This document shows, one piece after another, positions 2,970 to 64,000 of a stretch of DNA of 64,000 nucleotides. The translations under genes and the position numbers were made by a program. The DNA lies in NCBI GenBank assembly GCA_022711115.1, contig JAKLFP010000005.1, positions 136,572 to 200,571 of the forward strand. The letters are read 5' to 3'. Position 1 is the first letter of the stretch; the number at the start of each line of letters is the position of its first letter. The stretch is from Candidatus Omnitrophota bacterium (lineage in GTDB: Bacteria > Omnitrophota > Omnitrophia > Omnitrophales > Aquincolibacteriaceae). The notes below the pieces were generated by a model. The model worked only from the letters and a program-made list of their open reading frames with translations. It made no database searches and was not told where the DNA came from.

Positions 2970-4406
2970 ATGAATACTAAAAAATCCATGCTTGTCTGGT
3001 TCCGCAATAACCTTCGCACGGAAGATAACATCACTCTCGCACGAGCCGTGGAACAGGATGCGCCTCTGATCCCTCTGTTTATTTTTGATGAAAAACGGGA
3101 TTGTGGGAGTGCCAGCCGCTTGTGGCTTTACCATGCTCTTAAAAGTTTTGAGCGGGAACTTTTCAGGCTTGGAACGCGATTGATTTTTTTGAAAGGAGAT
3201 TCGCGCATCATTCTCGCGCGTTTGGCATCCGAGACAGGAGCGAAAGCACTTTACTGGGATCGTTCCTATGAACCTTATCAAAAAGAACAGGATCAGCTTA
3301 TTCAAAAAGATCTGGAGGGTTGGGGTATCCGTTGCGAATCGTTCAACGACACGCTTCTTTTTGATCCGGCCCAGATTCGTACTCGACAAGGCACTCCGTT
3401 TAAGGTTTTTACTGCGTTTTGGAATCACTGCACCAGTTTGCCAGAGCCGATGCTGCCAGTTCGAGCGCCTCAAAGATTGTCTGGTCCTGCAAAATGGCCC
3501 CAGTCCAAACGGCTAGAGGATTTTGGATTGCGGGATAAGGCACGCTGGTCAAACAAAGTGGAGGCTTTTTGGGAACCGGGAAACGTAGATGTCAGAAAGA
3601 ACTGGCGCAAGTTCCTAAAAGAAAAACTCGAAAATTACTCTCACGATCGGGATCGGCCAGCTCTAGAGGGGACCTCACGTCTTTCTCCGTATCTGCATTT
3701 TGGAGAAATAAGCGTCCGCAGTATTTGGCATGAGATGCGGCAGTATATGGTCCAGCATCGAAGGGCCGGGATCTTTCGTGAGGCAGAAACGTTTTTGAGG
3801 CAAATCGTCTGGCGGGAATTCGCGCACTATTTTTTGTTCCATTTCCCGGAAACGATCGAGCATCCGTTCAGAAAAGAATTTGAGAAATTTCATTGGAAAA
3901 AAAATTCCGCGTTACTTTGTGCATGGCGGAAAGGAAAGACGGGGTATCCTATCGTGGATGCGGGGATGCGTGAGCTTTGGGCCACTGGGTGGATGCACAA
4001 TCGCGTTCGAATGATTGTGGCATCATTCTTGGTGAAAGATCTTTTGCAGCCATGGCAAGAGGGTGCTCAATGGTTTCTAGAAACCCTTGTGGATGCTGAT
4101 GTCGCGAACAATGTGTTCGGATGGCAATGGACTGCGGGTTGCGGGGCAGATGCGGCTCCTTATTTCCGAATTTTTAATCCCATCCTGCAAGGTGAAAAAT
4201 TTGACTCCCGAGGTGATTATGTTCGTCGTTGGGTTCCCGAACTGTCCAAACTGCCGGACCGGTTTATTCACAAACCTTGGCAGGCATCTCCGGAAATTCT
4301 TGCAAAAGCCGGTATCCGGTTGGGTAAGGATTACCCCGATCCGGTTGTGGATCACCATCAAGCACGGAATCGTGCCCTTTTTAACTATGCCAGGATGAAA
4401 AAATAA
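2970..4406 (+). CDS. phrB: Deoxyribodipyrimidine photolyase / cryptochrome family protein
   Basis: The N-terminal WFRNNLRTEDN photolyase signature is present. The C-terminal FAD-binding domain carries WREF and GWQW...AG..DAAPYFRIFNP motifs. Confidence 0.85.
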   Translation: MNTKKSMLVWFRNNLRTEDNITLARAVEQDAPLIPLFIFDEKRDCGSASRLWLYHALKSFERELFRLGTRLIFLKGDSRIILARLASETGAKALYWDRSYEPYQKEQDQLIQKDLEGWGIRCESFNDTLLFDPAQIRTRQGTPFKVFTAFWNHCTSLPEPMLPVRAPQRLSGPAKWPQSKRLEDFGLRDKARWSNKVEAFWEPGNVDVRKNWRKFLKEKLENYSHDRDRPALEGTSRLSPYLHFGEISVRSIWHEMRQYMVQHRRAGIFREAETFLRQIVWREFAHYFLFHFPETIEHPFRKEFEKFHWKKNSALLCAWRKGKTGYPIVDAGMRELWATGWMHNRVRMIVASFLVKDLLQPWQEGAQWFLETLVDADVANNVFGWQWTAGCGADAAPYFRIFNPILQGEKFDSRGDYVRRWVPELSKLPDRFIHKPWQASPEILAKAGIRLGKDYPDPVVDHHQARNRALFNYARMKK

Positions 4407-19854: not shown

Positions 19855-20460
19855 ATGAAACAACTACTCGTTCTTTCGTTGTGTTTTTTTACAGCCGGAT
19901 GTGCAACCCATGTTGCTAAGGAAATACCAACCAATACCAAAAGTATGGCATCTGTCCCTCCAATAGTAGTCTCTGAACCTCGAAAGGAAACAAGCATCGT
20001 GAAGATTAAAATCGAAACTTCTCTGGGAGATATTTACGCAGACCTTTACAAGTCCGAAGTACCGAAAACCGTTGAAAATTTTGTAACGTTAGCCAAAAAA
20101 GGTTTTTATGATGGAATTATTTTTCATCGGGTCATTCCTGGTTTTATGATCCAAACCGGGGATCCGACAGGCACGGGTATGGGCGGACCGGGTTATAAGT
20201 TCAAGGATGAATTTTCGCCTAAATTGCGGCACGATAAGACAGGTGTTCTTTCTATGGCGAATGCCGGTCCGAATACAAACGGAAGCCAATTCTTCATTAC
20301 GGAAGTACCCACGCCTTATTTAGATGACCGCCACTCTGTGTTCGGTCAGGTGACCCAGGGTATGGATGTGGTCAATAAGATCGCCAGAGTTCCTCGTGAC
20401 GGCCAGGACAGGCCCAAACAGGATGTCGCCATGACGAAGGTGACGATCATCGAGGAGTAA
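19855..20460 (+). CDS. ppiA: Cyclophilin-type peptidyl-prolyl cis-trans isomerase, lipoprotein
   Basis: The FTAGC lipobox follows a signal peptide, and the [15 protein letters not shown] and NGSQFFIT cyclophilin motifs are present. The start at 19855 (MKQLL) is preferred over 19804. Confidence 0.85.
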
Positions 20461-51719: not shown

Positions 51720-53285
51720 ATGCATTCCCAATTTTCAGAGCTGTACGAGAAGTCTTTAAGCCGTGATATTTTAGTCGGCGAGGTTGTTAAAGGAACGGTG
51801 ATTGCCGTCCACGACCGTGAAGTCGTGGTGGATATCGGCTATAAGGCCGAGGGTATTTTGGCTAAAGATGAATTCCTGCAGCCGGAAACGCTGACGGTAG
51901 GTTCCGAGGTTGAAGTTCTTTTCGAAGGCTTTGACGATGTGGAAGGGAGTGCCATTTTATCCAAAAGGAAAGCCGACAGGCAAAAAACATGGAATGATAT
52001 TCTTTCGAATGCCGAAGAGGGTGCCATTGTGGAAGGACGCATTTCGCGTAAGGTCCGCGGTGGTTTCATGGTCGATATCGGCATGGAGGCCTTTTTGCCG
52101 GCATCGCTCGTGGATATTAAACCTGTCCGTAATCAGGATGCCTTTATCGGATTGCAGAGTAAATTTCTCGTCGTCAAGATCAATCACAAACGCAAAAATG
52201 TCGTTGTATCCCGAAAAGATCTCCTTGAGAAAAGCCGCAACGAAGCTCGAACGGAAAAGCTCAGCACGCTGAAGGTCGGGCAAGTTGTTAAAGGTAAAGT
52301 GAAAAACATTACCGATTTCGGCGTTTTCATCGATCTTGGCAATCTTGATGGTCTTCTTCATATCACCGATATGAGTTGGGGACGCGTTTCGCATCCTTCG
52401 GACCTTGCAAAGCTCGGGGATGAAATCGAGGTGGTGGTCATTGCCATTGATCAGGCGAAACAGAAGATTTCCCTTGGTCTCAAGCAAAAAGGTTCAGATC
52501 CTTGGGGAACGGTCGATCAACGCTATTCCATCGGCAATCAGGTTTGCGGGCGTGTGGTGAATATCCTTCCTTATGGTGCATTCGTGGAACTGGAACCCGG
52601 TATTGAAGGGCTTGTTCACATCAGTGAACTTTCCTGGACCAAACGGGTGAATCATCCCAGTGAGATTCTCTCCATCGGGATGGAATTGGATGTTGTCATT
52701 TTGAGTCTGGATAAAGAAGCTAAAAAGATTTCTCTGGGCGCCAAGCAGGCACAGGAAAATCCTTGGACTGCGGCAGCCAATAAGTATCAAGTCGGCAATC
52801 GTGTGACCGGGACGATTCGTAATTTGACGGATTATGGCGCGTTCATTGAATTAGAGCCCGGCATTGAAGGACTTCTTCACGTTTCGGATATTTCCTGGAC
52901 GCATAAGGTCGCCAAACCGTCAGATGTTCTTAAAAAAGGTGATCCGGTCGAGGTGATGATCCTGGCGGTGGATACGGAAGCAAAGAAGATTTCCCTCGGC
53001 ATGAAACAGCTTACCGATGATCCGTGGGTGGATCTTACGAAGAATTTTTTAACGGGCCTCGAACTCCAGGCAAAGATCACGAGGATTGTGAATTTCGGAC
53101 TTTTCGTGGAACTGGACAACGGGCTTGAAGGGTTGATCCACGTTTCTGAAATCCCTGATTGTTCGGGACAGGATCTCGCCAAGCAATATAAAATTGGCGA
53201 TACCCTTCGCTGCAGTATCCTGAATGTCGACCAAGAAGGCCGCAAGATCGCATTGACTTGCAAGAACGAATCCCTAAGTGCCTGA
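51720..53285 (+). CDS. rpsA: 30S ribosomal protein S1 (six S1 domains)
   Basis: Six repeated S1 OB-fold units with G.V..I..FG.FV...G..GL.H.S motifs are present. Confidence 0.9.
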   Translation: MHSQFSELYEKSLSRDILVGEVVKGTVIAVHDREVVVDIGYKAEGILAKDEFLQPETLTVGSEVEVLFEGFDDVEGSAILSKRKADRQKTWNDILSNAEEGAIVEGRISRKVRGGFMVDIGMEAFLPASLVDIKPVRNQDAFIGLQSKFLVVKINHKRKNVVVSRKDLLEKSRNEARTEKLSTLKVGQVVKGKVKNITDFGVFIDLGNLDGLLHITDMSWGRVSHPSDLAKLGDEIEVVVIAIDQAKQKISLGLKQKGSDPWGTVDQRYSIGNQVCGRVVNILPYGAFVELEPGIEGLVHISELSWTKRVNHPSEILSIGMELDVVILSLDKEAKKISLGAKQAQENPWTAAANKYQVGNRVTGTIRNLTDYGAFIELEPGIEGLLHVSDISWTHKVAKPSDVLKKGDPVEVMILAVDTEAKKISLGMKQLTDDPWVDLTKNFLTGLELQAKITRIVNFGLFVELDNGLEGLIHVSEIPDCSGQDLAKQYKIGDTLRCSILNVDQEGRKIALTCKNESLSA

Positions 53286-53295
53286 TCCAAAAAAG

Positions 53296-54546
53296 ATGAC
53301 GAATCCCCAGCACCGACGAGTCGTCATTACTGGTTTGGGGGTCGTTTCCCCGATCGGTTCCGGGAAAGAAACTTTTTGGAAAGCGCTGGTCGAGGGGAAA
53401 AGCGGTATTTCCAACATCACCTCGTTTGATACATCTGCTTTTACAACGCGTTTTGCCGGTGAGATCAAAGATTTCCAACCTACGTCATATATCCTTCCTA
53501 AAAAACTCAAACGCATGGATCGCACCACCCAATTAGCGGTTGTGGCCTCTAAAATGGCAGTTCAAGACGCGGGTCTCGATTTCCAGCAAAACGGTGGACG
53601 GGAAAGAACGGGCGTCATCATCGGAACGGCCCTTGCCGGTGTCGGTTATATCTTGGAACAATCGGTGATTCTTATGCAAAAAGGCCCTATGCGGCTTAAT
53701 CCCTTTACGGCCCTGGCGTCTTTTCCGGACGCTTGTGCCGGGAATGTTTCCATTGAATTGGGTGTAACCGGTCCGAGTTTTTCGATTGCTACCGCGTGCT
53801 CTTCAGCGTCTGACGCATGCGGCTATGCCTTTGATGCGATCCGGAGCGGCGATCTGGATTTTTTGATCATGGGTGGGGCGGAGGCCACTATTTTCCCGGG
53901 GATCGTGGCATCTTTTTGCGTTGCGCGTGCTCTTTCCACACGAAATGATCAACCGGAAAAAGCATCGCGTCCGTTCAGTATGGACCGTGACGGATTTGTG
54001 ATCGGAGAAGGTGCCGGCATGTTAGTGCTGGAGGAGTATGAGCACGCGAAAAAACGTGGCGCTCACATTTATGCTGAGATTCTTGGCCACGGCATGACCT
54101 GCGATGCTTATCATATGACGGCGCCGGACCCGGAAGGGCGGGAAGCAAGCCGCGCCATGCAACTTGCGATGAAACACGCGGGGATTGGGCCGCAAGAGAT
54201 TGATTATATCAATGCCCACGGCACCTCCACGCCTCTGAATGACAAGACCGAAACCCTGATCATCAAAAAAGTGTTCGGGTCTCGCGCCTATGAAATCCCT
54301 GTCAGTTCTGTCAAATCCATGATCGGGCATTTGATCGGTGCTGCCGGCAGTGTCGAGCTCATCGCCGCACTCCTTGCCATGCAACACCAGGTCATTCCGC
54401 CGACCATCAACTACACAAGCAAAGATCCTGAATGTGACTTGGATTATGTGCCGAATACGGCGCGGGAAGCCAAACTTCGGATTGTGATGAAGAATTCCTT
54501 TGGCTTCGGCGGGAAAAATTCCATCCTTATCCTCAAAAAAGTCTAA
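53296..54546 (+). CDS. fabF: 3-oxoacyl-ACP synthase II
   Basis: The Cys-His-His triad context is present (ACSS, HGTST, GH.IGA.G). The start at 53296 (MTNPQHRRVVITG) is preferred. Confidence 0.9.
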   Translation: MTNPQHRRVVITGLGVVSPIGSGKETFWKALVEGKSGISNITSFDTSAFTTRFAGEIKDFQPTSYILPKKLKRMDRTTQLAVVASKMAVQDAGLDFQQNGGRERTGVIIGTALAGVGYILEQSVILMQKGPMRLNPFTALASFPDACAGNVSIELGVTGPSFSIATACSSASDACGYAFDAIRSGDLDFLIMGGAEATIFPGIVASFCVARALSTRNDQPEKASRPFSMDRDGFVIGEGAGMLVLEEYEHAKKRGAHIYAEILGHGMTCDAYHMTAPDPEGREASRAMQLAMKHAGIGPQEIDYINAHGTSTPLNDKTETLIIKKVFGSRAYEIPVSSVKSMIGHLIGAAGSVELIAALLAMQHQVIPPTINYTSKDPECDLDYVPNTAREAKLRIVMKNSFGFGGKNSILILKKV

Positions 54547-54598
54547 CCTTATCAGCCTATCGAGTATAGCTGATTGCCTATAGCCGTTGCTATGAGCT

Positions 54599-55498
54599 TT
54601 AAAGAACTTCTTCGTTGATTTCTTCGGCGGGATTTGCTGCTGTGCGATTCTTTCGGTGGGAAATAGTATCAACACCTGAACCATCGAGGATGCCGCGTTT
54701 GGATGCTTCAATAAAGGCCACCATATGCGCTACTTCTTTGCTCTTGAGATCCCGCTTGATCGTTTCCAAAGCCTGACTGACATTCATCCCTGAGCGGTAA
54801 AGGAGTTTGTAGGCTTCCTTGATCTCCATGCGGACCTCGGGGCCGATGCCCGCGCGTCTCAAGCCGACTACATTGATCCCCTGAGCGATCGCAGGACGCC
54901 CGCCGCAAATAACGTAGGGAGGAATATCTTTATTAATCGCTGAAAGGGCGCTGACCATGGCAAGCGTTCCGATGCGCGTGAATTGGTGGAACCCTGTCAT
55001 GCCGGAAAGGAACGCGCGATCCTCCACCTCACAATGGCCGGTCAGCGATGCCTGATTGACCATGATGATATGGCTGCCGAGATGGCAGTTGTGCGCGATA
55101 TGGCAGTAAGCCATAAAAAAATTCGAATCACCAATGATCGTAGCCGTACCTTCCTTGGTGCCGCGATGGATCGTGACAAACTCCCGGATTTCATTTTTAT
55201 TCCCGATTTTTGTGAAAGTTTCTTGTCCCTGGTAGGCCAGATCCTGAGGGGCATGGCCGAGCACGGCATTCATGTGGATTGTATTGTAATGACCGAGTTC
55301 GGTGCCCCGAGCGAGATAAGCGCCGGCCATGATCTTATTATGACCGCCGAGCTTCACCCCATCTTCAATAATGACATTGGGACCGATGGTGTTGTTAACC
55401 CCAATTTCGACGTTTTTACCGATTATGGCTGAAGCATGAATTTCTGACACGGTTCCAATCCCTTTCAATGTCTGCGAAGTGGCCCCCATACGGATCAA
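54599..55498 (-). CDS. lpxA: Acyl-ACP--UDP-N-acetylglucosamine O-acyltransferase
   Basis: The hexapeptide-repeat left-handed beta-helix is present, with a C-terminal helical domain. The catalytic His lies in MAYCHIAHNCHLG. Confidence 0.85.
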   Translation of the reverse strand: MIRMGATSQTLKGIGTVSEIHASAIIGKNVEIGVNNTIGPNVIIEDGVKLGGHNKIMAGAYLARGTELGHYNTIHMNAVLGHAPQDLAYQGQETFTKIGNKNEIREFVTIHRGTKEGTATIIGDSNFFMAYCHIAHNCHLGSHIIMVNQASLTGHCEVEDRAFLSGMTGFHQFTRIGTLAMVSALSAINKDIPPYVICGGRPAIAQGINVVGLRRAGIGPEVRMEIKEAYKLLYRSGMNVSQALETIKRDLKSKEVAHMVAFIEASKRGILDGSGVDTISHRKNRTAANPAEEINEEVL

Positions 55499-55885: not shown

Positions 55886-58800
55886 ATGATTCGACAAAAA
55901 ACATTCAAATCGTTCATCGCGTCTTTCACGGCCTTTACTTTTTTCTTCACGAGTCTCGGTTTTAATGGTTCTCTTTTTGCCGCGGCGACCATGCCCGAAG
56001 TATCCCTGCCTTATCAGGCTGTTTTAGGCCAGAATATTCGCATTTCGCTTCCGCAAGATATCGGCAAAATCGAAAATTTGAAAATCGGAAAAAGCGGTCT
56101 TCCGGTTGTTTTCCACATTCAAACCGCGCACGGACACTATCAGGCCCAAAAACAAATCCAAGCCATTCTGAAACATTTGGATCAGAATTATGGCGTGAAG
56201 ACAGCGTTGGTCGAAGGCAGTGCTTTCAAGCTCAATCCGGAAATCCTGCGTTTCTTTCCTTCCGACATGGATCTGACCTTGAAGATTGCCGATGAACTCA
56301 CCAAGCAAGCGCTTGTCAAAGGCCCGGAGCTTTATCTGCTTGATTCCAAGGGCAGTCAGGCTTTCGGTATCGAAAAGGCCGAAGCCTATCGCGCAAACCG
56401 TGCGTCCTTTGTCGACGTTCTAGAAGAGCAGAAAAAAACAGGTCAGTTTCTCGCCGATATGAACATGAGTATCGAGCGCCTTTCAAGTCATTATCTGAGT
56501 AAAGACCTTCGCGATTTTCTCAAACGCCTTGAATCTTTCGAAAAGAACCAACTGCCGTTTGAGCAATGGCTTTCTTATCTTAAGGAGGAAGCCCAAAAAC
56601 GTCTGAATGTCGATTTGACGCAGACGGGTTATCAGGTCGAATGGCCGATGCTTGTCCGCCTTTTTAAGGTTCAAGAACTCTCTCGAAAACTAGATAAGCA
56701 GGCTTATCAGAAGGAAAAAGACTTGTTTCTCAAAGCCATCCGTTCTATTTCAAAAACCACTTATGCAGAGATTGAAGCACTTCTGAACAATCCCAATCTT
56801 GCCCGCCAGTTGCCGGATCCGGAAACCAGTCTTTTGTTCGAGGACATGGTTCGTCAACTGCCGCGTCAGTTTAATTATGAGGCCTTTCCGAATGTGCGCT
56901 ACTATGCCGGTTGTTTGATCCTTCAAAGCGAGATAAAGGCTGTAGGGCTTATGTCGGAGACCCAAAAGCTTACGGATCTTATCACTCGGAAACTGACCCG
57001 AAATAAAGAGGAACACAAGCTTTTAACCCTTTTAAAAGACCACCGTCTTCTTCAGAAACTGTTTGCTCTGGAGTTACTGCCCGCCGATTACGAACAAATC
57101 CTCGAACGGGGGATGACGGATGCCGGATGGAGCTTAAAACCCTCCGAACTTGTCAAACGCTTTAGCCCTGCTATTTTCCAACCTTCGTCCAATATCCGAA
57201 GAGTCAAAGATGTAGCATTTACCCACATCGCCGATCTCGACATCCTTTTCAACAAGGCTATGAAATTTTATAAAGGTGTCAAAATGCGCGATGCACTTAT
57301 GGAACAGATGATCGAACAGCGTCTCCAGGAGACAGGCGCCACGAAAGTCGCGGTCATCACCGGGGGCTTTCACTCCGGGCCTTTTCAGGATTATTTCTCG
57401 AATAAAGATTATACGTACGCGCTCATTTCTCCGAAGATTTCCGGGGCGGATGACAAGGGCCATGAGGCTTATATCCAGAACATGATCGATTTTACTTTTC
57501 ACCCGGTCAAAGCGGCTACCATTGAATCAGCATTTTCTGCCGATCTCGGGATGAATGAAACACAAGCCGCCTCGGTTGGTCTTTCTCTCAGAGTTGCCCG
57601 CACAGCATTTGTTTCTGCGGTACGTGAAATCGTCGCCCATGTGGCCCAAGATCACAAAGACGCCTTTGCCGTTCTCCGCGCGCATTTCAAGAAAGTATTC
57701 GAAACGGGAGAACTTGCCGCGGTGCCTCAAATGGTCCCGATCCCTTCGCCGGCCACAGCGCCTGTTTTGAATGCGCGGTCCGAAGTGCGGGCCGAAGCGA
57801 CTGAGAATATTGATTTGAAAAATGCGATTCTTTTAGCCCTTATCAGTCACCTTCAACTTGCGGATATCGATCGAAGACTTCTCGATACAGATATTGTGGA
57901 AGAAATCCAGGGTAAATTGACGCTCCCCGCACGGCGCTTGGACGCGTTGTTTCAGCGGCATAAAGGGCAGCCTATTTTGAATGTTCAGGGGGCACAGAGT
58001 GTGGCTCGAAGTTTTGATCTGTTTTTGAGACGAAAAGAGGAAGTGGATCTTTATAAGACGCAGTTTTTTGAAATCCCCAAAACAGCCTATGTCGTTGAAG
58101 TCAAAAGTAACCCTAAAAAACCGGTTGAACCCGATATTTTTGGTACGGATCAGGATGCCCTGCGAGAACAGATCAAATTTATTTCGATTCTTAACCATTT
58201 GACACAGCCCGGGAAACAAAATCTCTTCAACAAATTTCTCGGGCATCCTGATGTCCAATATTACAAGACGATTCGCAAGGTTCGCGAAATGTACAAGCAA
58301 AAAGAAGGTCGAGGGCAGAATGACCAACTTGTGATGGGAGAAATACCCACGCTTGCGACTTTTGACCTTTTCCGGCAAAGGCTAAAAGAAGTGCTCAAGG
58401 GTGAAGAGTTTCTTGCGGAGGATGATGTGAAATTCATCAATCGCTTGAAGGGCGAAATCGACCGATTCATCGATTTAAACGATCTCATGAGCGAACTCCT
58501 TCATCAGGCCATGGACCGCGATTCGATTTCCCGTGAAGATGCGAACATTCTTCTTTATTTGCAGCAGGTGGGGGTGGGGGTGGTCAGCGAAGAAGTCGCT
58601 CAGGCAATCAAGAGCGATACCCATTATGTTAGTCTCGGCGCTTATAAGTATGGGTTGCAATATAACCCTGGCCGTGCTAAACGGAGCGGACTTTTTAAAG
58701 GGCATATGGTGGGAAGGCAAACGGAAACGATTGTGGCAGAGTCTTATGTCAATGATTTCCTCCCGCTTCAACGGCATCTGCGTGCCGGTAAAGCCGATGC

Positions 58801-61800
58801 CGGACTTCGCATCAGGGAACTTGCCAATCCCTATCCGCATAAATTTGCCAGCCGTAATACGGTTTTTGATCCGATTCAGCCCCAGGTCGTAAATCTTGAA
58901 GACCTGGAAAGTTTGTTGCGCAATCTGAGAGAAAGTACACCCTCCGGTGAACCGACGCGGTACCGCGGATTTTTTAACGGGCCATTCGCTGGTTTTACCA
59001 TCCCGCATCTTCATTATCAAGGTTTTCTCGGTGAAACCAAGATGGAAGAAGCCTTGAAGCAGGAGGGCGCGCTGGAACTGTTGGGTGTCGATAAAAACAA
59101 TATTAAACATTTCCGTCTTAATAATGAATTTTTTAAAGACAAAGCCCAATTTCCGTTGCGTTCCACCATAGTCATTGAAGGAAGAGATCCTGAGGCTACG
59201 GCGCAAGCGGTCATTGAAATTTTGAAATTAGCTAATGACAAAGAAAAACTAGGCAAAAAGAAAAAGTCCCTTCCCATTACCAAAGAATCTCTTTTTACCT
59301 ACAATATTCTTTTTTCTGATAATGGCGAATTTTCTCGCGTCTATGTGATGATGAATCGCATTGTGCTTGATCCGCTGAATCCTCCCGGAAGCCTTACGGA
59401 AAGGAATACACTCGTCTATTCTAATAAGGAAGAGCATAAGGAAAGAGTCAAAGCATTAAAAAGCGAATTGAAAAAAATCCGCCAGAAATTTCCGCCACTC
59501 TGGAAAAAACATGGGCAAATTGAGGGGAAGGCAGAGAAAGAGGCGTATCTAAAACAAGAGATCGAACCCTTGCAGAAAGAATACGGTAAAAAAGTCACGG
59601 AGGCTATCAAGGAAACCGTCATTCTCTTTCAAGGAAGACCTGCTAGCGTGGAGATGACCGATCTTCTGATCTTCGGGGATCCCAACCAGGAAAAAAGTTT
59701 TAAGACGATCCTGGAAAGCGCGGATTTACAACGGTACGTGATTGATGAAGTTTTTAACGAGAGGGTGTATCCGGATTTTGAAGACTTAATTAAAAAAGTG
59801 CAAGCTTCCTTGACATCTGGAGCTGTTCGTTCCGAGGTACGTTCACCCGATCAAATCCGGGGATTGCCAACCCTGGCAATACCCGGATTTGCCAAGGGTC
59901 GCTCGGAGGCGCACAGCAGTCTCCGCACTGAGAGTGACAAAGCCACCGTACGTGCTGAGATGAGGGCTGATGAAAGCCGTAACAAGAGACCTTTCCAGGT
60001 CGTAAAATATTTAGAGGCCGTGACAGAGGGAGGAAGCGTCACTTCTCCGGAATCTCAACCATTTCATGGTCAGGTGGGAGCCCGACCGGATGCGCCCTCG
60101 GTGCATTTAAGCAATCGACAGATTGCAGGCGCAGTCGGAAAAATGAGAAAAACTTCTGGTCGTTCGGAAGCGCGAAACGAGAGTAAATGGCATGAATTGC
60201 AGAGACAAATACAAGCTGTGGTTGATGCCCGTGAGGCAGTCATCAAGGGCCTGCAAGATGATCATCATCAGGCCGTTGCTGCTTTGCATCGTGAACTTCC
60301 GGGTAAAGAAAATGCCACTGCTCGTGCTTTGCGTATCGAACTCATGCATGAAGATCTTGAAAAGGCCGTCCACAAAATTAATCACGATGCTGGACGTCAG
60401 ATCGAAAAGCTGAATGTGCGGCAACGGCAACTTTCCGACTCCCGCTCCGAAGTAAGGAGCGCGGTATGGCCCAAGGATTCGGTTATTTTGAAATCCCAAT
60501 ATGAAACTTTGACACCCCCGCAACAAGAGGTGGTAAGGCAAGTGACGGAATTGCTTGATAGTGCTGGCAGTCATGTCGCAAGGTATAAACCGACCGTGAA
60601 ATATGCCGAGTTGACGGGTGGCAGCCAGACTTTTCGCGATTGGCGGGATATCCATCCAGGTGAATGGGATCTTAATGAAATTTTGGCGGGGATTCCTCTT
60701 GAGGCGGACTGGCAGCGAAATCTTATAGCGGAACATTTTTTTGATGCTTTTCGCAGGGGTTATGACCGGACGAAATCAGGAGTCATGAGCCGGGCACGCG
60801 GTTTGATTTTATTTCAGATTCAACGTCAGCCGGATGTGGAGCCGGATGCTTCCGTGACGACAACCGTTTTTCGCTATTTTAAAGACGTGCTTCCCGTTGC
60901 TAGCGATCTTCACCGGAAAATAAGTCATCAGGAGACATGGTTAAAACGAATGGGAGGTTCCGAGCTTTATCATTTGATCGTTCTCATTGAGCCGGATCCC
61001 ATGGTGCCGTATGTTGACGCCAATCGGTATGCCGGCATTTTACATGTCCTGGCATTGGGCAAAAAGGCTGCTGAAAAACTTCAATCGCTTTTGACAAATA
61101 ATCCCGAAGCTCTTCCCTATGCGCTTCGTAATAGCACAAGAACGGCTTTTAAAAATACTTATGAGGGATTTGTCAGGCCGACGTTGGACGCCGCCGGATT
61201 TTACAGGCCTTTGAATGTCGAAGACACTGCCCAACGCGATTTCGTCATTGCCCAGACAGATCAGCCTGCCCGCTCGGAGGCACGTAGTAGCCTCAGCACT
61301 GAAAACACCACGGGTGCTGTACGTGCCGAGCTGAGGGATGCTGGCAAACTTGCTATTGAACTTTCCATTTTGTCAGGGCTTCTTTATCCCGAGGAAAACC
61401 GAAAACCGGCAGGTTTTCAGAATACCCGGCTTTTGAGCCAGCTTAATGCGCCATTATTTGGCGGAATTCTTTTTGAGACTTTGAGAATTGTGGATCAGGA
61501 GATCGCAAAAGGGTCTGACGCGAAAGGATCCGCGGCGTGGAGAAAAATAAAAGCTGCTTATACAAAAGAACTAAAACAAACCATCAACCGGGAAAACAGG
61601 TCAAACCGGCTATTATCGGATCATCAAGCCGCGGATTTTTTAAGACGTTTTACGGCCGATCTTGCGACTGCCAGGATCTTTGCCCGCTCGGAGGCACGTA
61701 GTAGCCTTCGCACTGAGAGCACCACGGGTGCCGTACGTGCCGAGGTGAGGGGCATGGAGGTTGTCAAGGATGGTGTTCCGCTCCGTTCCGAAGTACGGAG

Positions 61801-64000
61801 TTGGGATGCTGAAATCATGAAGCAATTCAAAGCGATGTTTAGCAGAATGCTTGGCGCCAATTTGCCGGTTGGAACAGATATCACTATGCATACGCGCCTG
61901 AGGGAAGATCTGGGGATGGATGCGGATGGTTCGACAGACGATTTCAGCTTCTTTTTGCCCGATGCACTTGTGGGCACATTTAATCTTAACGTTCCGCAAA
62001 GTGAAATAAACCGCTGGCAGACGGTGGGCGATGTTTTCAACTATGTCAAAGGTCAACTTATCCGCTCTGGGGTGAGGCATAGAGGGTTATTGCCGGAACC
62101 GTGGCAGCGGATTACTCATGAATCGTTAGACAAGATCCGGCCAGGAACGGTTATTTATCATTGGATCGGATCACGGAGCACATTTGAATATTTAGGCCGT
62201 TCCGCGGACGAAAAGTTCTGGCTGATTGCGTTAAATCAAGATAGGCAGAGGATGCAGGGCGCTCGGCCCGTTGCAGTGGAAAGTCGCGAATTGATAGGGG
62301 GGTCTTTCTTGCAGACTGGCCTTTCCCGTTCCGAAACAGAGACCGGAGTTTGGGTTCCTTTAGATGCAGATAAAAAGGGAGCCTTGATTATTCCAAAGGG
62401 CAGTCGTGTGCGGAAGGGAGAAAGAGAGTACACGGTTACCGAACGGATTGCATCCGGCGCATCCGGGAAAGTGGAGTTCACTTATGGCTTAAAGGAGTAT
62501 CCGGCCACTTCGAGGCCGACAACCGCTCTTGGGTTGACGGAGATGGTGAGGGCTGGCTACGAGCTTTTCATTCCTTTTGTAAATGTTGAAGAGCTAAAAA
62601 CTTCGGAAGTCATTCATTCCGAGGTGCGGATTACCGGATCAAAACCCGGTTTTGAATCTCGCGGCCCCGAAGCCGAAAACCGGGTTTTGGATTCCCGCTC
62701 CGAGGTGAGGACTGCAGGACCGACGTTCCAGGGAGTGAATCTTTTTAAGGTGGTTTTTGGAAATTCAGCAAACACAAATTTGGCAATATTGCAGGAAGCC
62801 GTCAAAAAAAATTCGCCCCAAAGTCCCCAAATAAGCAAGGCAATACATGACGTAGCTCCATCGGTTTCCAAGAGAAAATTGCCGCTTCCTTCCGGAAATT
62901 TGACAGCATTCTCATTTGATGACGGGGTTCTTGAGCGGGTTTATGTTGCGGCCGATAAAGGGCAGCTAACGATTACTCAAATACTCGAATCGATTCTCAT
63001 GCCCGAGTCGAATAAATCGATGGTCTTGCAAGTCAGTAACAAGGGCGCGTTGCTTACTTTTTACCGGGTTGAGGGCGAATCGCCGATGGTGCAGCCGTTT
63101 TTCAAAAAGCTGAATCTTGCTTTGATTCGGGAAGTGGAAGTAATACCTGCACAGCCGGGCGGGTATCCTTCGATGATCTTAAAGACCTCACGGAGGCAAA
63201 GTCCTGAACTTCAAAGGTGGATCACCGCATTTCAACAGGCGCAGCGACAGGACGATTTCAGGGTGAGCGTGCTGATCCAGGCTGTGCAATCCACGCGACG
63301 TTCCGAGGCGCGAATTATCGGATCAAAACCCGGTTTTGAATCTCGCGGCCCCGAAGCCGAAAACCGGGTTTTGGATTCCCGCTCCGAGGTGAGGGCCATG
63401 GAAGAAGTCAGGGTCCTTGTTGCCGATAAGCCGGAAAGCGGGATGGCGGGATTAGAGAAGCTTATTGAAGGGTTTGGAAAAAACGCGAAGCTTGTGGGGC
63501 TTGCGGGGGTCGGTAAAGATGAAGCTCAACTCCGCAAGACGATTGAAGAAAACCATCCGACGATCGTGACAATCCGCGGTGTGACGAAGGCTTTCAAAAA
63601 CCCTGAATTTGTAAAATGGGCGGGCACGCAGGGCGTCCGCGCCATCATCCGCTACGGCGCCGGTGTTGACAATGTGGACCAACCTGCTGCAAAAGAAGCG
63701 GGCATCTCGGTCATCCCGACGTTTGGCAACGCCAACTCCGTCGCTAATTTTTCACTCCGTTTTTTAATCGCCGCTTTGAATCTCTCGGAACCGGAAGAAC
63801 AGGGGCCTGTGAAGGATCTTTCGGTAGAGGATCAATGGAAAGATGTTCTGGATGTGCCGTTGAGCGACATTGAGCAGGCGCTGGCAAGTTCGCTTGCAAA
63901 AGGCCGCGGAGAAATGATCAGCGGGCATCAGCAAAAAGTTTTCCGGGCGATTTCCGGCGAACGTTTGATCGCTCTTGTAAAAAAACTTGAAGGTAAAACG
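55886..64000 (+). CDS. Giant multidomain ORF (more than 2700 codons, 3' end beyond the window). It has an N-terminal signal peptide, recurring R-S-E-[V/A]-R linker motifs, a carrier-protein-like module near 61800-62050 and a D-2-hydroxyacid-dehydrogenase-like module from 63398
   Basis: I translated codon by codon from ATG 55886 to 64000 and found no in-frame stop. An in-frame TGA lies immediately upstream. Every minus-strand ORF in this span is short. The carrier-like domain reads ...REDLGMDADGSTDDFSFF.... The terminal domain reads MEEVRVLVAD...RYGAGVDNVD...AKEAGI.V..T.G.NA.SVA. Confidence 0.75.
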   Translation, partial: MIRQKTFKSFIASFTAFTFFFTSLGFNGSLFAAATMPEVSLPYQAVLGQNIRISLPQDIGKIENLKIGKSGLPVVFHIQTAHGHYQAQKQIQAILKHLDQNYGVKTALVEGSAFKLNPEILRFFPSDMDLTLKIADELTKQALVKGPELYLLDSKGSQAFGIEKAEAYRANRASFVDVLEEQKKTGQFLADMNMSIERLSSHYLSKDLRDFLKRLESFEKNQLPFEQWLSYLKEEAQKRLNVDLTQTGYQVEWPMLVRLFKVQELSRKLDKQAYQKEKDLFLKAIRSISKTTYAEIEALLNNPNLARQLPDPETSLLFEDMVRQLPRQFNYEAFPNVRYYAGCLILQSEIKAVGLMSETQKLTDLITRKLTRNKEEHKLLTLLKDHRLLQKLFALELLPADYEQILERGMTDAGWSLKPSELVKRFSPAIFQPSSNIRRVKDVAFTHIADLDILFNKAMKFYKGVKMRDALMEQMIEQRLQETGATKVAVITGGFHSGPFQDYFSNKDYTYALISPKISGADDKGHEAYIQNMIDFTFHPVKAATIESAFSADLGMNETQAASVGLSLRVARTAFVSAVREIVAHVAQDHKDAFAVLRAHFKKVFETGELAAVPQMVPIPSPATAPVLNARSEVRAEATENIDLKNAILLALISHLQLADIDRRLLDTDIVEEIQGKLTLPARRLDALFQRHKGQPILNVQGAQSVARSFDLFLRRKEEVDLYKTQFFEIPKTAYVVEVKSNPKKPVEPDIFGTDQDALREQIKFISILNHLTQPGKQNLFNKFLGHPDVQYYKTIRKVREMYKQKEGRGQNDQLVMGEIPTLATFDLFRQRLKEVLKGEEFLAEDDVKFINRLKGEIDRFIDLNDLMSELLHQAMDRDSISREDANILLYLQQVGVGVVSEEVAQAIKSDTHYVSLGAYKYGLQYNPGRAKRSGLFKGHMVGRQTETIVAESYVNDFLPLQRHLRAGKADAGLRIRELANPYPHKFASRNTVFDPIQPQVVNLEDLESLLRNLRESTPSGEPTRYRGFFNGPFAGFTIPHLHYQGFLGETKMEEALKQEGALELLGVDKNNIKHFRLNNEFFKDKAQFPLRSTIVIEGRDPEATAQAVIEILKLANDKEKLGKKKKSLPITKESLFTYNILFSDNGEFSRVYVMMNRIVLDPLNPPGSLTERNTLVYSNKEEHKERVKALKSELKKIRQKFPPLWKKHGQIEGKAEKEAYLKQEIEPLQKEYGKKVTEAIKETVILFQGRPASVEMTDLLIFGDPNQEKSFKTILESADLQRYVIDEVFNERVYPDFEDLIKKVQASLTSGAVRSEVRSPDQIRGLPTLAIPGFAKGRSEAHSSLRTESDKATVRAEMRADESRNKRPFQVVKYLEAVTEGGSVTSPESQPFHGQVGARPDAPSVHLSNRQIAGAVGKMRKTSGRSEARNESKWHELQRQIQAVVDAREAVIKGLQDDHHQAVAALHRELPGKENATARALRIELMHEDLEKAVHKINHDAGRQIEKLNVRQRQLSDSRSEVRSAVWPKDSVILKSQYETLTPPQQEVVRQVTELLDSAGSHVARYKPTVKYAELTGGSQTFRDWRDIHPGEWDLNEILAGIPLEADWQRNLIAEHFFDAFRRGYDRTKSGVMSRARGLILFQIQRQPDVEPDASVTTTVFRYFKDVLPVASDLHRKISHQETWLKRMGGSELYHLIVLIEPDPMVPYVDANRYAGILHVLALGKKAAEKLQSLLTNNPEALPYALRNSTRTAFKNTYEGFVRPTLDAAGFYRPLNVEDTAQRDFVIAQTDQPARSEARSSLSTENTTGAVRAELRDAGKLAIELSILSGLLYPEENRKPAGFQNTRLLSQLNAPLFGGILFETLRIVDQEIAKGSDAKGSAAWRKIKAAYTKELKQTINRENRSNRLLSDHQAADFLRRFTADLATARIFARSEARSSLRTESTTGAVRAEVRGMEVVKDGVPLRSEVRSWDAEIMKQFKAMFSRMLGANLPVGTDITMHTRLREDLGMDADGSTDDFSFFLPDALVGTFNLNVPQSEINRWQTVGDVFNYVKGQLIRSGVRHRGLLPEPWQRITHESLDKIRPGTVIYHWIGSRSTFEYLGRSADEKFWLIALNQDRQRMQGARPVAVESRELIGGSFLQTGLSRSETETGVWVPLDADKKGALIIPKGSRVRKGEREYTVTERIASGASGKVEFTYGLKEYPATSRPTTALGLTEMVRAGYELFIPFVNVEELKTSEVIHSEVRITGSKPGFESRGPEAENRVLDSRSEVRTAGPTFQGVNLFKVVFGNSANTNLAILQEAVKKNSPQSPQISKAIHDVAPSVSKRKLPLPSGNLTAFSFDDGVLERVYVAADKGQLTITQILESILMPESNKSMVLQVSNKGALLTFYRVEGESPMVQPFFKKLNLALIREVEVIPAQPGGYPSMILKTSRRQSPELQRWITAFQQAQRQDDFRVSVLIQAVQSTRRSEARIIGSKPGFESRGPEAENRVLDSRSEVRAMEEVRVLVADKPESGMAGLEKLIEGFGKNAKLVGLAGVGKDEAQLRKTIEENHPTIVTIRGVTKAFKNPEFVKWAGTQGVRAIIRYGAGVDNVDQPAAKEAGISVIPTFGNANSVANFSLRFLIAALNLSEPEEQGPVKDLSVEDQWKDVLDVPLSDIEQALASSLAKGRGEMISGHQQKVFRAISGERLIALVKKLEGKT
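59900..59965. repeat. 66-nt in-frame repeat unit (encodes RSEA[HR]SSL[RS]TE...VRAE[MLV]R), divergent copy A
   Basis: It begins CGCTCGGAGGCRCA and ends GTACGTGCYGAGNTGAGG. It has a terminal inverted repeat in which GGCACGTA pairs with TACGTGCC. Confidence 0.7.
61271..61336. repeat. 66-nt in-frame repeat unit, copy B
   Basis: It is about 90% identical to copy C at 61685-61750. Confidence 0.75.
61685..61750. repeat. 66-nt in-frame repeat unit, copy C
   Basis: It is about 90% identical to copy B. It is followed 35 nt later by another RSEVR word at 61783. Confidence 0.75.
62617..62710. repeat. 94-nt in-frame palindromic repeat unit, copy 1 (direct repeats of CCGAGGTG[C/A]GG flank an inverted repeat made of AAAACCCGGTTTT and AAAACCGGGTTTT)
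   Basis: Its 3' 72 nt are identical to copy 2 at 63301-63394. It encodes SEVRITGSKPGFESRGPEAENRVLDSRSEVR. Confidence 0.8.
63301..63394. repeat. 94-nt in-frame palindromic repeat unit, copy 2
   Basis: It is near-identical to 62617-62710 and immediately precedes the Met of the dehydrogenase-like module. Confidence 0.8.

What the first reader, a model, noticed from the sequence alone, without database searches (positions are those of the whole stretch)
61800..64000. Carrier-protein-like and 2-hydroxyacid-dehydrogenase-like modules embedded in the same frame as a signal-peptide-bearing giant protein
Segment 61800-62050 reads MKQFKAMFSRMLGANLPVGTDITMHTRLREDLGMDADGSTDDFSFF..., which has the length and the DLG.D...(S) phosphopantetheine-site context of an ACP/PCP. 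Segment 63398 onwards begins with Met and carries the G-x-G-x-x-G-like and RYGAGVDNVD pattern of D-isomer-specific 2-hydroxyacid dehydrogenases (the SerA/PGDH family). Both are normally small cytosolic proteins. Here they sit downstream of an N-terminal secretion signal (MIRQKTFKSFIASFTAFTFFFTSLGFNGSLFAAA) and about 1900 residues of unknown function. The topology is paradoxical unless the protein is processed, or the signal peptide belongs to only the first module.
Basis: inference. Interest (0 to 1): 0.6.

Follow-up and report, generated by a model that had tools for sequence, protein, structure and literature searches.

The report
Punctuated multi-enzyme giant protein, Omnitrophota
The segment is a small part of one 10,238-codon gene of an Omnitrophota bacterium, in which enzyme-sized modules (a real dehydrogenase, degenerate carrier-protein-like domains) are strung behind a secretion signal and separated by a strictly repeated five-residue motif (R-S-E-V-R) that looks like a set of cutting sites.

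Summary
Window 55886-64000 is one stop-free frame. The same contig carries it as a gene called at 10,238 aa. The organism is a Candidatus Omnitrophota bacterium.

- **Dehydrogenase module: real.** It spans aa 2504-2901 and only its first 201 aa lie in the window. Both Pfam 2-Hacid_dh domains score above threshold. Arg, Glu and His sit at the catalytic positions.
- **"Carrier protein": only ACP-like.** Weak hits go to ACPs and nothing else. There is no Pfam PP-binding hit, and the attachment Ser is Ala.
- **No PKS/NRPS/FAS domains** in the 3201 aa I could read.

Enzymes behind a signal peptide in Omnitrophota giant proteins were already described in a 2026 preprint as "multi-enzyme metabolic clusters".

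What I did not find described is the punctuation. R-[SA]-E-x-R occurs 17 times in 3201 aa (0.06 expected) and in no other real gene of the window. Its codons vary synonymously. It never falls inside a Pfam domain (0 of 75 across four proteins; 13.7 expected). Relatives carry other motifs in the same positions: RAEVR, RSELR, GARLA, RASASG, AGLEE, DAAML.

Best reading is an exported polyprotein cut at these motifs. This is inferred and no protease was identified. Interest 0.62.

The parts
55886..64000 (+). First 2704 codons of a giant gene. It is called as 10,238 aa on contig Ga0209507_1000075, and I verified 3201 codons as stop-free.
   Evidence: a second assembly is identical
55886..55987 (+). 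Sec-type signal-peptide-like N-terminus (aa 1-34, ...SLFAAA|T)
   Evidence: Read from the sequence. Equivalent hydrophobic N-termini occur in 9 relatives. No predictor was run.
55988..57775 (+). Conserved 'head' module (aa 35-630). Invariant residues: H-I-Q-x-x-H, E-G, R, G-G-x-H.
   Evidence: Found at the N-terminus of at least 10 giant relatives and 15 further Omnitrophota proteins. AF2 pLDDT 77. Only weak ChaN/EreA-like hints.
57776..57790 (+). RSEVR punctuation motif
57791..59827 (+). 679-aa module with no family assignment
59828..59842 (+). RSEVR punctuation motif
59900..59965 (+). Double motif RSEAH-SSLRTESDKATV-RAEMR (copy 1 of the 66-nt linker unit)
60161..60175 (+). RSEAR punctuation motif
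60443..60457 (+). RSEVR punctuation motif
61271..61336 (+). Double motif RSEAR-SSLSTENTTGAV-RAELR (66-nt linker unit)
61685..61750 (+). Double motif RSEAR-SSLRTESTTGAV-RAEVR (66-nt linker unit, 92% identical to the previous copy)
61751..61783 (+). GMEVVKDGVPL: remnant of the C-terminal tail of a dehydrogenase module lost from a duplicated DH-ACP unit
   Evidence: Same peptide as at the end of the complete DH module, aa 2892-2901
61784..61798 (+). RSEVR punctuation motif
61799..62062 (+). ACP-like module (88 aa), with Ala at the phosphopantetheine-Ser position. First of three such modules in the gene.
   Evidence: negative results
62063..62077 (+). Degenerate motif RSGVR. It reads RSEVR in the duplicated copy.
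62078..62614 (+). 179-aa orphan module
   Evidence: No Pfam or PDB sequence match
62615..62710 (+). Double motif HSEVR-ITGSKPGFESRGPEAENRVLDS-RSEVR. This is the repeated linker unit (96 nt motif to motif; the repeat finder reports 94 nt, 62617-62710), with a perfect 18-bp hairpin.
62711..63298 (+). 196-aa orphan module
   Evidence: No Pfam or PDB sequence match
63299..63394 (+). Double motif RSEAR-IIGSKPGFESRGPEAENRVLDS-RSEVR, second copy of the same linker unit (97% identical over the 94-nt repeat). Identity stops at the outer motif edges.
63395..64000 (+). First 201 aa of a 398-aa D-2-hydroxyacid-dehydrogenase module (substrate-binding domain; RYGAGVDNVD at 63650-63679). The NAD domain lies beyond the window.

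Best explanation
The finding lies inside one 30.7-kb gene of a Candidatus Omnitrophota bacterium. The gene belongs to the recently described 'multi-enzyme' class of Omnitrophota giant proteins.

**Architecture (shown)**
- A Sec-type signal peptide comes first, followed by a conserved 600-aa head module.
- After that comes a chain of protein-sized modules (11-679 aa).
- Each module is bounded by the pentapeptide R-[SA]-E-[VALM]-R.
- In the finding's coordinates the order is: ACP-like domain without its attachment Ser, two orphan modules, then a complete D-2-hydroxyacid dehydrogenase with Arg, Glu and His at the catalytic positions. Two more ACP-like domains follow.

**How it most likely works (inferred)**
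1. The chain is exported or membrane-anchored by its signal peptide.
2. It is then cut at the pentapeptides by a protease that co-evolves with its site.
3. This releases the modules as separate proteins outside the cytoplasm, in the manner of a viral polyprotein.

The ACP-like domains are probably non-acylated helical adaptor domains, not carriers.
For: **Identity**
- The stop-free frame and the 10,238-aa gene call.
- The neighbouring FabF equals HOW59870.1 from Candidatus Omnitrophota.
- Of 8 DH relatives in GTDB species genomes, 5 are Omnitrophota MAGs.
- 43 DH-module relatives among 1.84 billion representatives are mostly embedded in proteins of 2000-6900 aa.
- The class is described in bioRxiv 10.64898/2026.06.07.730766.

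**Dehydrogenase**
- PF00389 scores 39 bits and PF02826 41 bits, both above cut-off.
- PDB phosphoglycerate dehydrogenase 1wwk matches at E 3e-11.
- R301 is invariant and H353 at least 90% conserved in the clade. E329 sits at the canonical +5 from D324.

**Motif**
- 17 strict copies in 3201 aa against 0.06 expected.
- None in any other real ORF of the 64-kb window.
- Every codon position varies synonymously, so selection acts on the peptide.
- 0 of 75 motifs lie inside Pfam envelopes, against 13.7 expected.
- In about 30 relatives the DH module is flanked on both sides by that lineage's own motif: RAEVR, RSELR, GARLA, RASASG, AGLEE or DAAML.
- Motif-bounded modules in relatives include whole enzymes: GH77, DHQ synthase, GlpX, AKR, PCMT and Glu dehydrogenase. 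In P0004 one motif-free 1057-aa stretch holds a sugar kinase plus PdxA.
- The DH also exists as a standalone protein with its own signal peptide.
Against: - No cleavage has been observed. This is sequence inference only.
- No protease was identified. There is no peptidase Pfam in our 3201 aa or in the smallest complete relatives. The head module's ChaN/Tiki/EreA resemblance is sub-threshold.
- Some relatives (P0003, P0005/L008, P0038/L010) show no obvious repeated motif.
- An NAD(P)-dependent enzyme outside the cytoplasm lacks an obvious cofactor supply.
- 69% of our gene (aa 3202-10,238) was not readable.
- Some motif pairs enclose nucleotide hairpins, which hints at an additional or alternative RNA/DNA-level role.
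Confidence: 0.5

Rival explanations
1. The protein stays in one piece as a megadalton, surface- or membrane-associated scaffold. The pentapeptide would then be a structural hinge, a docking or recognition site, or a modification site between domains, not a cleavage site.
For: - Published readings treat these giants as single membrane-anchored polypeptides.
- No protease was found.
- The motifs lie between domains, which fits linkers as well.
Against: - Plain linkers are not normally invariant five-residue strings kept under peptide-level selection. These are strict within a genome yet entirely different in sister lineages.
- Double motifs enclosing 11-22-aa spacers have no obvious scaffold role.
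- Modules occur as standalone proteins elsewhere.
Confidence: 0.27
2. The motif is mainly a nucleic-acid-level feature. It would be the footprint, or target-site duplication, of an in-frame palindromic element, or a recombination site through which modules are shuffled. The peptide would then be a passenger, as with Rickettsia palindromic elements inside genes.
For: - The 94-nt and 66-nt linker units are repeated at 92-97% nucleotide identity, and that identity stops exactly at the flanking motifs.
- The linkers carry hairpins, in ours and more strongly in relative L011 (z -3.1 to -4.7, 0 of 200 shuffles).
- A DH-tail + motif + ACP unit has been duplicated within the gene.
Against: - Single motifs show free synonymous variation at every codon while the amino acids stay fixed. 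That is the signature of selection on the peptide.
- Most motifs (about 10 of 20 in ours) are single and carry no hairpin.
- The hairpin element is absent from the other 56 kb of the window.
Confidence: 0.12
3. The ORF is really an operon without stop codons. Modules would be made separately from internal starts, the motif acting as a ribosome-binding site (GAGGTGAGG), or by a stop-go type of translational recoding at the motif.
For: - Two motifs are followed by ATG within two codons (61754, 63398), and GAGGTGA is Shine-Dalgarno-like.
- In DAAML/ARMA-type lineages the motif contains Met.
Against: - Met follows within two codons at only 2 of the 20 sites.
- Many copies use GAA, GTA or GCN codons that destroy the SD-like string.
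- Internal starts would not terminate the upstream product.
- As far as I know, no bacterial stop-go mechanism has been described.
Confidence: 0.05
4. The ACP-like and dehydrogenase modules form part of a carrier-protein-dependent assembly line (PKS, NRPS or FAS type), the dehydrogenase acting as a ketoreductase-like tailoring domain.
For: - Three ACP-like modules flank the dehydrogenase: aa 1972-2059, 2907-2993 and 2999-3081.
- A profile of them retrieves only ACPs from the PDB.
Against: - There are no KS, AT, C, A, TE or PPTase domains in 3201 aa.
- All three ACP-like modules lack the attachment Ser.
- DH-ACP adjacency is not seen in the relatives I read (P0002-P0012).
Confidence: 0.03

Closest known systems
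Omnitrophota giant proteins, class 'multi-enzyme metabolic clusters' (Nielsen & Lui, bioRxiv 2026, 10.64898/2026.06.07.730766; giant genes of West-Roberts et al., bioRxiv 2023, 10.1101/2023.11.21.568195)
   Same: - Same phylum.
- Called at more than 10,000 aa.
- N-terminal signal peptide.
- Metabolic-enzyme domains tiled along one polypeptide.
- Same topology puzzle, with enzymes predicted on the outer face.
   Different: - Neither paper's text contains 'linker', 'motif' or 'polyprotein'.
- West-Roberts et al. state that cleavage points are unknown.
- The lineage-specific pentapeptide punctuation, the conserved head module and the -[AS]A C-termini seen here are not mentioned in either.
- Our first 3201 aa are Pfam-poor: one family only.
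D-isomer-specific 2-hydroxyacid dehydrogenases (PF00389/PF02826; e.g. phosphoglycerate dehydrogenase 1wwk, glyoxylate reductase 2cuk)
   Same: - Two-domain architecture.
- The R-x-G-x-G-x-D-N-x-D stretch.
- A Rossmann motif.
- The Arg/Glu/His catalytic positions.
   Different: - A distinct clade, with only 26-28% identity to ordinary members and 40-51% within the clade.
- Carries a roughly 60-aa insertion between the two domains.
- The Rossmann motif is GxGxxA, and the usual Asp after beta-2 is missing.
- Found almost only inside giant proteins or behind signal peptides.
- Substrate unknown.
Acyl carrier proteins (PF00550)
   Same: - Length of about 85 aa.
- The D-L-G-x-D context.
- The C-terminal helix motif (T-V-G-D-V-x-x-Y-V).
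- Profile hits go to ACPs only.
   Different: - Ser replaced by Ala (by Lys-Gln in the third copy).
- A 5-residue insertion in helix II.
- Scores are far below family cut-offs.
- No synthase partners.
Proteolytically processed polyproteins (picornavirus/potyvirus polyproteins; gingipain RgpA/Kgp/HagA precursors of Porphyromonas). This comparison rests on my general knowledge.
   Same: - Many functional units in one ORF.
- A short conserved site at each junction.
- The site is conserved within a lineage and differs between lineages.
- Short spacer peptides lie between paired sites.
   Different: - No protease identified and no cleavage shown.
- Scale of 10,000 aa or more.
- The cargo is cellular metabolic enzymes in a bacterium.

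Membership tests
D-isomer-specific 2-hydroxyacid dehydrogenase | Both Pfam domains (PF00389 catalytic, PF02826 NAD-binding) score above their gathering cut-offs | tested here: met
   39.1 bits (cut-off 24.6) and 41.4 bits (cut-off 25.1) on aa 2504-2901. The in-window part alone gives PF00389 at 36.1 bits.
D-isomer-specific 2-hydroxyacid dehydrogenase | Rossmann dinucleotide motif GxGxxG at the start of the NAD domain | tested here: met
   GIIGFGKTA, of the GxGxxA type, at aa 2707-2715, just beyond the window. The same variant is found throughout the clade.
D-isomer-specific 2-hydroxyacid dehydrogenase | Catalytic Arg / Glu / His triad | tested here: met
   - R301 (NTAR) is invariant and H353 (SPH) at least 90% conserved in 16 clade members.
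- E329 lies 5 residues after D324. That this matches the D264/E269 spacing of E. coli PGDH is from my memory.
- The Glu is not conserved across the clade.
D-isomer-specific 2-hydroxyacid dehydrogenase | Dehydrogenase activity and substrate | not testable with these tools
   Requires an enzyme assay.
Acyl/peptidyl carrier protein (PP-binding) | Match to PF00550 or to NCBIfam ACP models at their cut-offs | tested here: not met
   No Pfam hit. NCBIfam ACP models reach at most 24.6 bits against cut-offs of 66-92.
Acyl/peptidyl carrier protein (PP-binding) | Conserved Ser of the D-S-L motif, the 4'-phosphopantetheine attachment site | tested here: not met
   Aligned residue is Ala in copies 1 and 2. 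Copy 3 has K-Q at that place.
Acyl/peptidyl carrier protein (PP-binding) | Four-helix-bundle fold | tested here: inconclusive
   - Single-sequence AF2 model has pLDDT 55.7 and is not usable.
- A profile of the three copies retrieves 9 PDB chains, all ACPs, best E 0.003.
Omnitrophota multi-enzyme giant proteins | Encoded by Omnitrophota; product of at least 10,000 aa | tested here: met
   - FabF and LpxA beside the gene are NCBI Omnitrophota proteins.
- The gene is called at 10,238 aa on a 153-kb contig. I verified 3201 aa as stop-free.
Omnitrophota multi-enzyme giant proteins | Signal peptide and/or TM helices | tested here: met
   - N-terminal signal-like segment with an AxA site, conserved in relatives.
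- No further TM-like segment in aa 60-3201.
- No dedicated predictor was available.
Omnitrophota multi-enzyme giant proteins | Many distinct Pfam families tiled along the chain | tested here: inconclusive
   - Only the 2-Hacid_dh pair in our first 3201 aa. 7037 aa were not readable.
- Relatives carry GH77, GT2, DHQS, GlpX, AKR, PdxA, PCMT and ELFV dehydrogenase.
Processed polyprotein | Short conserved site at every junction between functional units | tested here: met
   - 17 strict copies against 0.06 expected.
- 0 of 75 inside Pfam envelopes against 13.7 expected.
- The DH module is flanked by the motif in about 30 relatives.
Processed polyprotein | Site under peptide-level selection and lineage-specific | tested here: met
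   Synonymous codon variation within the motifs. Different motifs in different lineages.
Processed polyprotein | Cognate protease | tested here: inconclusive
   - No peptidase Pfam found.
- Head module: one member hits ChaN PF04187 at E 5e-4.
- Foldseek lists EreA-like 3b55, ChaN 2g5g and EreC 6xcs only at E 1-3.
Processed polyprotein | Cleavage products observed | not testable with these tools
   Needs proteomics or N-terminomics.
PKS / NRPS / FAS megasynthase | Ketosynthase, acyltransferase, condensation or adenylation domains | tested here: not met
   None in 3201 aa at E up to 1.

The most novel reading that the evidence does not exclude
Omnitrophota giant 'multi-enzyme' genes are true bacterial polyproteins.
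- Each lineage uses its own pentapeptide (RSEVR, RAEVR, RSELR, GARLA, RASASG, AGLEE, DAAML...) as a cutting signal for a co-evolving protease.
- That protease might be the conserved N-terminal head module, or a tail-specific protease that reads the conserved -[AS]A C-terminus.
- One exported 10,000-aa chain would thus yield dozens of separate enzymes and small spacer peptides outside the cell, or in a host.
Probability: 0.35. Interest if true: 0.85.

Novelty: new variant of a known kind. Interest (0 to 1): 0.62.

Why it matters
Two papers on Omnitrophota giant genes leave open whether these proteins of 10,000 to 147,000 aa act as single chains or are cut. One of them says cleavage points are unknown.

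A strictly repeated, lineage-specific pentapeptide at every module boundary gives concrete candidate cut sites. These can be searched for in existing metaproteomes and tested with synthetic peptides.

If the sites are real, they would:
- allow giant ORFs to be split rationally for structure prediction and annotation;
- establish a polyprotein strategy for cellular enzymes in bacteria.

If they are not cleaved, they are still a compact marker for delimiting modules in otherwise unannotatable sequence.

Tried and rejected
- **Word-indexed homology search.** With aa 1972-3201 it returned nothing. With the DH module it returned 4 proteins, only one from this clade. That index seems to hold few giant proteins. 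The exhaustive HMMER search was what worked.
- **ACP-like module structure.** The single-sequence AF2 model has pLDDT 55.7, so no fold search was run on it.
- **Head module.**
  - Profile against PDB sequences: nothing.
  - NCBIfam: nothing meaningful.
  - Foldseek against the PDB: nothing below E 0.1.
- **Extending our own gene.**
  - The metagenome scan did not return its contig.
  - The look-up tool is limited to 10-kb flanks and products of 5000 aa or less, so aa 3202-10,238 stayed unread.
- **Rfam.** Only a tRNA in the whole window, and no RNA family at the linkers.
- **Literature.** 'RSEVR', 'Omnitrophota + polyprotein' and related terms gave nothing relevant.
- **The two orphan modules inside the finding.** No Pfam or PDB match.
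- **Conserved C-terminal domain.** Rejected: the tails share only their last residues.
- **RNA structure for the 66-nt linkers.** Rejected as not better than shuffles.
- **Assembly artefact.** Rejected.
Full report
**1. What is in the sequence**

Frame 2 of the plus strand is open from the ATG at 55886 to the last base of the window, 2704 codons. A look-up of the neighbouring lpxA gene returned the parent contig, JGI 3300025706 Ga0209507_1000075 (153 kb). There the gene is called with a 10,238-residue product.

- The 9.6 kb of the gene held in locus L001 are identical to the window. They extend the stop-free frame to 3201 codons.
- A Logan assembly of run SRR4244739 is identical over 6156 nt. 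The long ORF is therefore not an assembly accident.
- The adjacent FabF is exactly NCBI HOW59870.1, and the adjacent LpxA falls in the 90%-identity cluster of HOW59871.1. Both NCBI entries are labelled Candidatus Omnitrophota bacterium.

**2.

*Dehydrogenase.*
- The piece from 63398 matches Pfam 2-Hacid_dh above threshold even though it is truncated: 36.1 bits against a cut-off of 24.6.
- Followed beyond the window, the module is 398 aa (aa 2504-2901). It hits both PF00389 (39 bits) and PF02826 (41 bits).
- Its best solved relative is a phosphoglycerate dehydrogenase, 1wwk, at E 3e-11.
- It has a GxGxxA Rossmann motif three codons past the window end.
- Arg301, Glu329 and His353 sit at the catalytic positions. 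Arg is invariant and His at least 90% conserved in 16 clade members.

*Carrier-like piece (61799-62062).* This one is much weaker.
- There is no Pfam PP-binding hit.
- NCBIfam ACP models reach E 2e-5 but only 24.6 bits against cut-offs of 66-92.
- A profile of the three paralogous copies in the gene retrieves nine PDB chains, all of them ACPs, at E 0.003 or worse.
- The residue aligned with the phosphopantetheine Ser is Ala. The second copy (82% identical) and the third copy have no Ser there either.
- A single-sequence structure model was too poor to use.

I therefore call it ACP-like, not an ACP. No KS, AT, C or A domains occur anywhere in the 3201 aa.

**3. The unexpected feature: punctuation**

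Splitting the translation shows that every module is bounded by R-[SA]-E-[VALM]-R.

- There are 17 strict and 20 relaxed copies in 3201 aa. Composition-preserving shuffles give 0.06 on average and never more than 2.
- The only two other matches in all six frames of the window lie in spurious 43- and 62-codon ORFs.
- All five codon positions vary synonymously: CGT/CGC/CGG, TCC/TCG/TCT, GAA/GAG, GTG/GTA/GTC, AGG/CGN. The constraint is therefore on the peptide.

**4. Relatives**

An exhaustive HMMER search of 1.84 billion representatives with the last 1199 window residues found 43 proteins. All but one (P0040) matched through the dehydrogenase module, and most are 2000-6900 aa with the module in mid-chain. 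Scans of GTDB genomes and JGI metagenomes added loci with stop-free stretches of up to 7071 codons that run off the fetched DNA. These come mainly from Omnitrophota MAGs.

Each lineage has its own punctuation:

| Motif | Where | Copies |
|---|---|---|
| RAEVR | L011 | 22 in 5166 aa |
| RSELR | L005 | 11 |
| GARL[AS] | L006, L007, P0011 | 19-20 in about 7000 aa |
| RASASG | L009 | 7 |
| AGLEE | P0032 | 4 |
| DAAML | P0029 | 3 |

- Again the codons vary while the residues do not.
- In about 30 relatives the dehydrogenase module is preceded within 3-10 residues, and followed within 10-20 residues, by that lineage's motif.
- Across four proteins, 0 of 75 motifs fall inside Pfam envelopes, against 13.7 expected from coverage.
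- Motif-bounded modules in relatives include whole enzymes: 4-alpha-glucanotransferase, GT2, 3-dehydroquinate synthase, GlpX FBPase, aldo-keto reductase, PCMT and Glu/Leu dehydrogenase. In P0004 one motif-free 1057-aa stretch holds a sugar kinase plus PdxA.
- The dehydrogenase also exists as a protein of about 490 aa with its own signal peptide (P0001, P0013, P0030). It also occurs in 650-1100-aa proteins built as signal peptide, motif, then DH.

**5. Other conserved parts**

- The first about 540 residues after the signal peptide form a head module. Its invariant residues are H-I-Q-x-x-H, E-G, R and G-G-x-H.
- It is present at the N-terminus of at least 10 of the giants. It is also in 15 further, mostly truncated, proteins, five of them labelled Omnitrophota/Omnitrophica by their sources and none with a Pfam domain.
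- AF2 with nine sequences gave pLDDT 77.
- Its family is unresolved.
  - One member hits Pfam ChaN (Tiki superfamily) at E 5e-4.
  - Foldseek lists an erythromycin-esterase-like protein, ChaN and EreC only at non-significant E values of 1-3.
  - The residue pattern resembles that superfamily from my memory. I treat this as a lead only.
- No TM-like segment follows in aa 60-3201.

**6. Comparison with what is known**

- A June 2026 preprint describes Omnitrophota giant proteins whose 'multi-enzyme metabolic cluster' class tiles many enzyme Pfams behind signal peptides. It discusses the same topology puzzle.
- West-Roberts et al. (2023) suspected post-translational cleavage but stated that cleavage points are unknown.
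- The words linker, motif and polyprotein are absent from both texts.
- Searches for RSEVR and for Omnitrophota plus polyprotein or related terms found nothing.

So the finding as written is a new member of a known kind. The punctuation is, as far as the searchable literature shows, undescribed.

**7. Mechanism**

*Shown:*
- one gene and a signal-like N-terminus;
- modules delimited by a peptide-level, lineage-specific motif placed between domains;
- a complete dehydrogenase;
- degenerate ACP-like domains.

*Inferred:* export, followed by site-specific proteolysis at the motifs. This is a polyprotein reading, at about 0.5 including the identity claims. The cleavage step alone is about 0.35-0.4.

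*Main rival:* an uncleaved scaffold, with the motif as hinge or docking site.

*Nucleic-acid-level role:* this cannot be dismissed for the paired motifs.
- The two 94-nt linker copies are 97% identical, and that identity ends exactly at the motifs.
- They carry a perfect 18-bp hairpin.
- The analogous 16-aa spacers of L011 fold far better than shuffles.
- However, single motifs carry no such structure, and their synonymous variation argues for the peptide.

Internal initiation and a PKS/NRPS-type function are poorly supported (section 2).

**8. Limits**

- 69% of the gene could not be read.
- No signal-peptide or TM predictor was available.
- No protease was identified.
- All statements on processing are inference from sequence.

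Noticed in passing
relatives P0002-P0043 and L005 (C-termini); own C-terminus not available: 21 of 29 family proteins of at least 900 aa end in Ala: 12 in -AA, 6 in -SA, and two in FWVAA. Background Ala frequency is 9.7%, giving binomial P of about 1e-15. The tails are otherwise not homologous. This looks like a short C-terminal signal. From memory, it resembles the non-polar -AA ends read by tail-specific (Prc/Ctp) proteases and ClpX.
   Followed up: partly
window 62615-62710 and 63299-63394; also 59900-59965, 61271-61336, 61685-61750; L011 aa 769-795, 1894-1920, 2028-2054, 3732-3757: - Paired motifs enclose short spacers that are repeated within a gene: SSLRTESTTGAV x3, I[TI]GSKPGFESRGPEAENRVLDS x2, and in L011 RAERPGTPPSFGPIGR x3.
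- Their DNA forms hairpins: an 18-bp perfect stem at 62640-62689, and in L011 z -3.1 to -4.7.
- Identity between copies stops at the outer motif edges.
- This is as expected for an in-frame palindromic insertion with target duplication, or for gene conversion.
   Followed up: partly
window 61751-62077 versus L001 (gene aa 2890-2998): A unit made of the last 9-10 residues of the dehydrogenase, RSEVR and the ACP-like module is duplicated inside the gene. Nucleotide identity is 86%, with 10 synonymous and 19 non-synonymous codon differences. The upstream copy has lost the dehydrogenase itself. Its downstream motif has decayed to RSGVR.
   Followed up: yes
L069 9739-11700 (GCA_900206355.1, OBEQ011205122.1): In one relative the head module ends at an in-frame TAA. 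The same frame reopens nine codons later and reaches an RSELR motif 14 residues into the next called gene. This could be a real gene split at a module boundary, a pseudogene or a sequencing error.
   Followed up: no
L068 10001-20991 (ENA ERZ26692762, 3.65x long-read contig): A head-module gene is followed by nine same-strand ORFs in changing frames, probably a giant gene broken by indel errors. Its motif is RSEGR. A second head-type gene starts at 19895, which suggests tandem giant genes.
   Followed up: no
P0017, P0019, P0027, P0031, P0032 (N-termini): In the AGLEE/AGMEE lineage the signal peptides end in a conserved P-N-S-x-x-A-L-R string. This is followed within 5-40 residues by the first punctuation motif, even in proteins of only 650-1100 aa.
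   Followed up: no
window 53278-55498 and upstream to about 41000: The giant gene is divergently adjacent to lpxA. It lies next to housekeeping genes: fabF, an S1-domain protein, prephenate dehydrogenase, DAHP synthase, an aminotransferase, chorismate mutase/prephenate dehydratase, scpB, scpA and a class-I tRNA synthetase (PF00579; trpS- or tyrS-type). This is from the L001 gene table. No secretion or protease genes lie immediately beside it.
   Followed up: no
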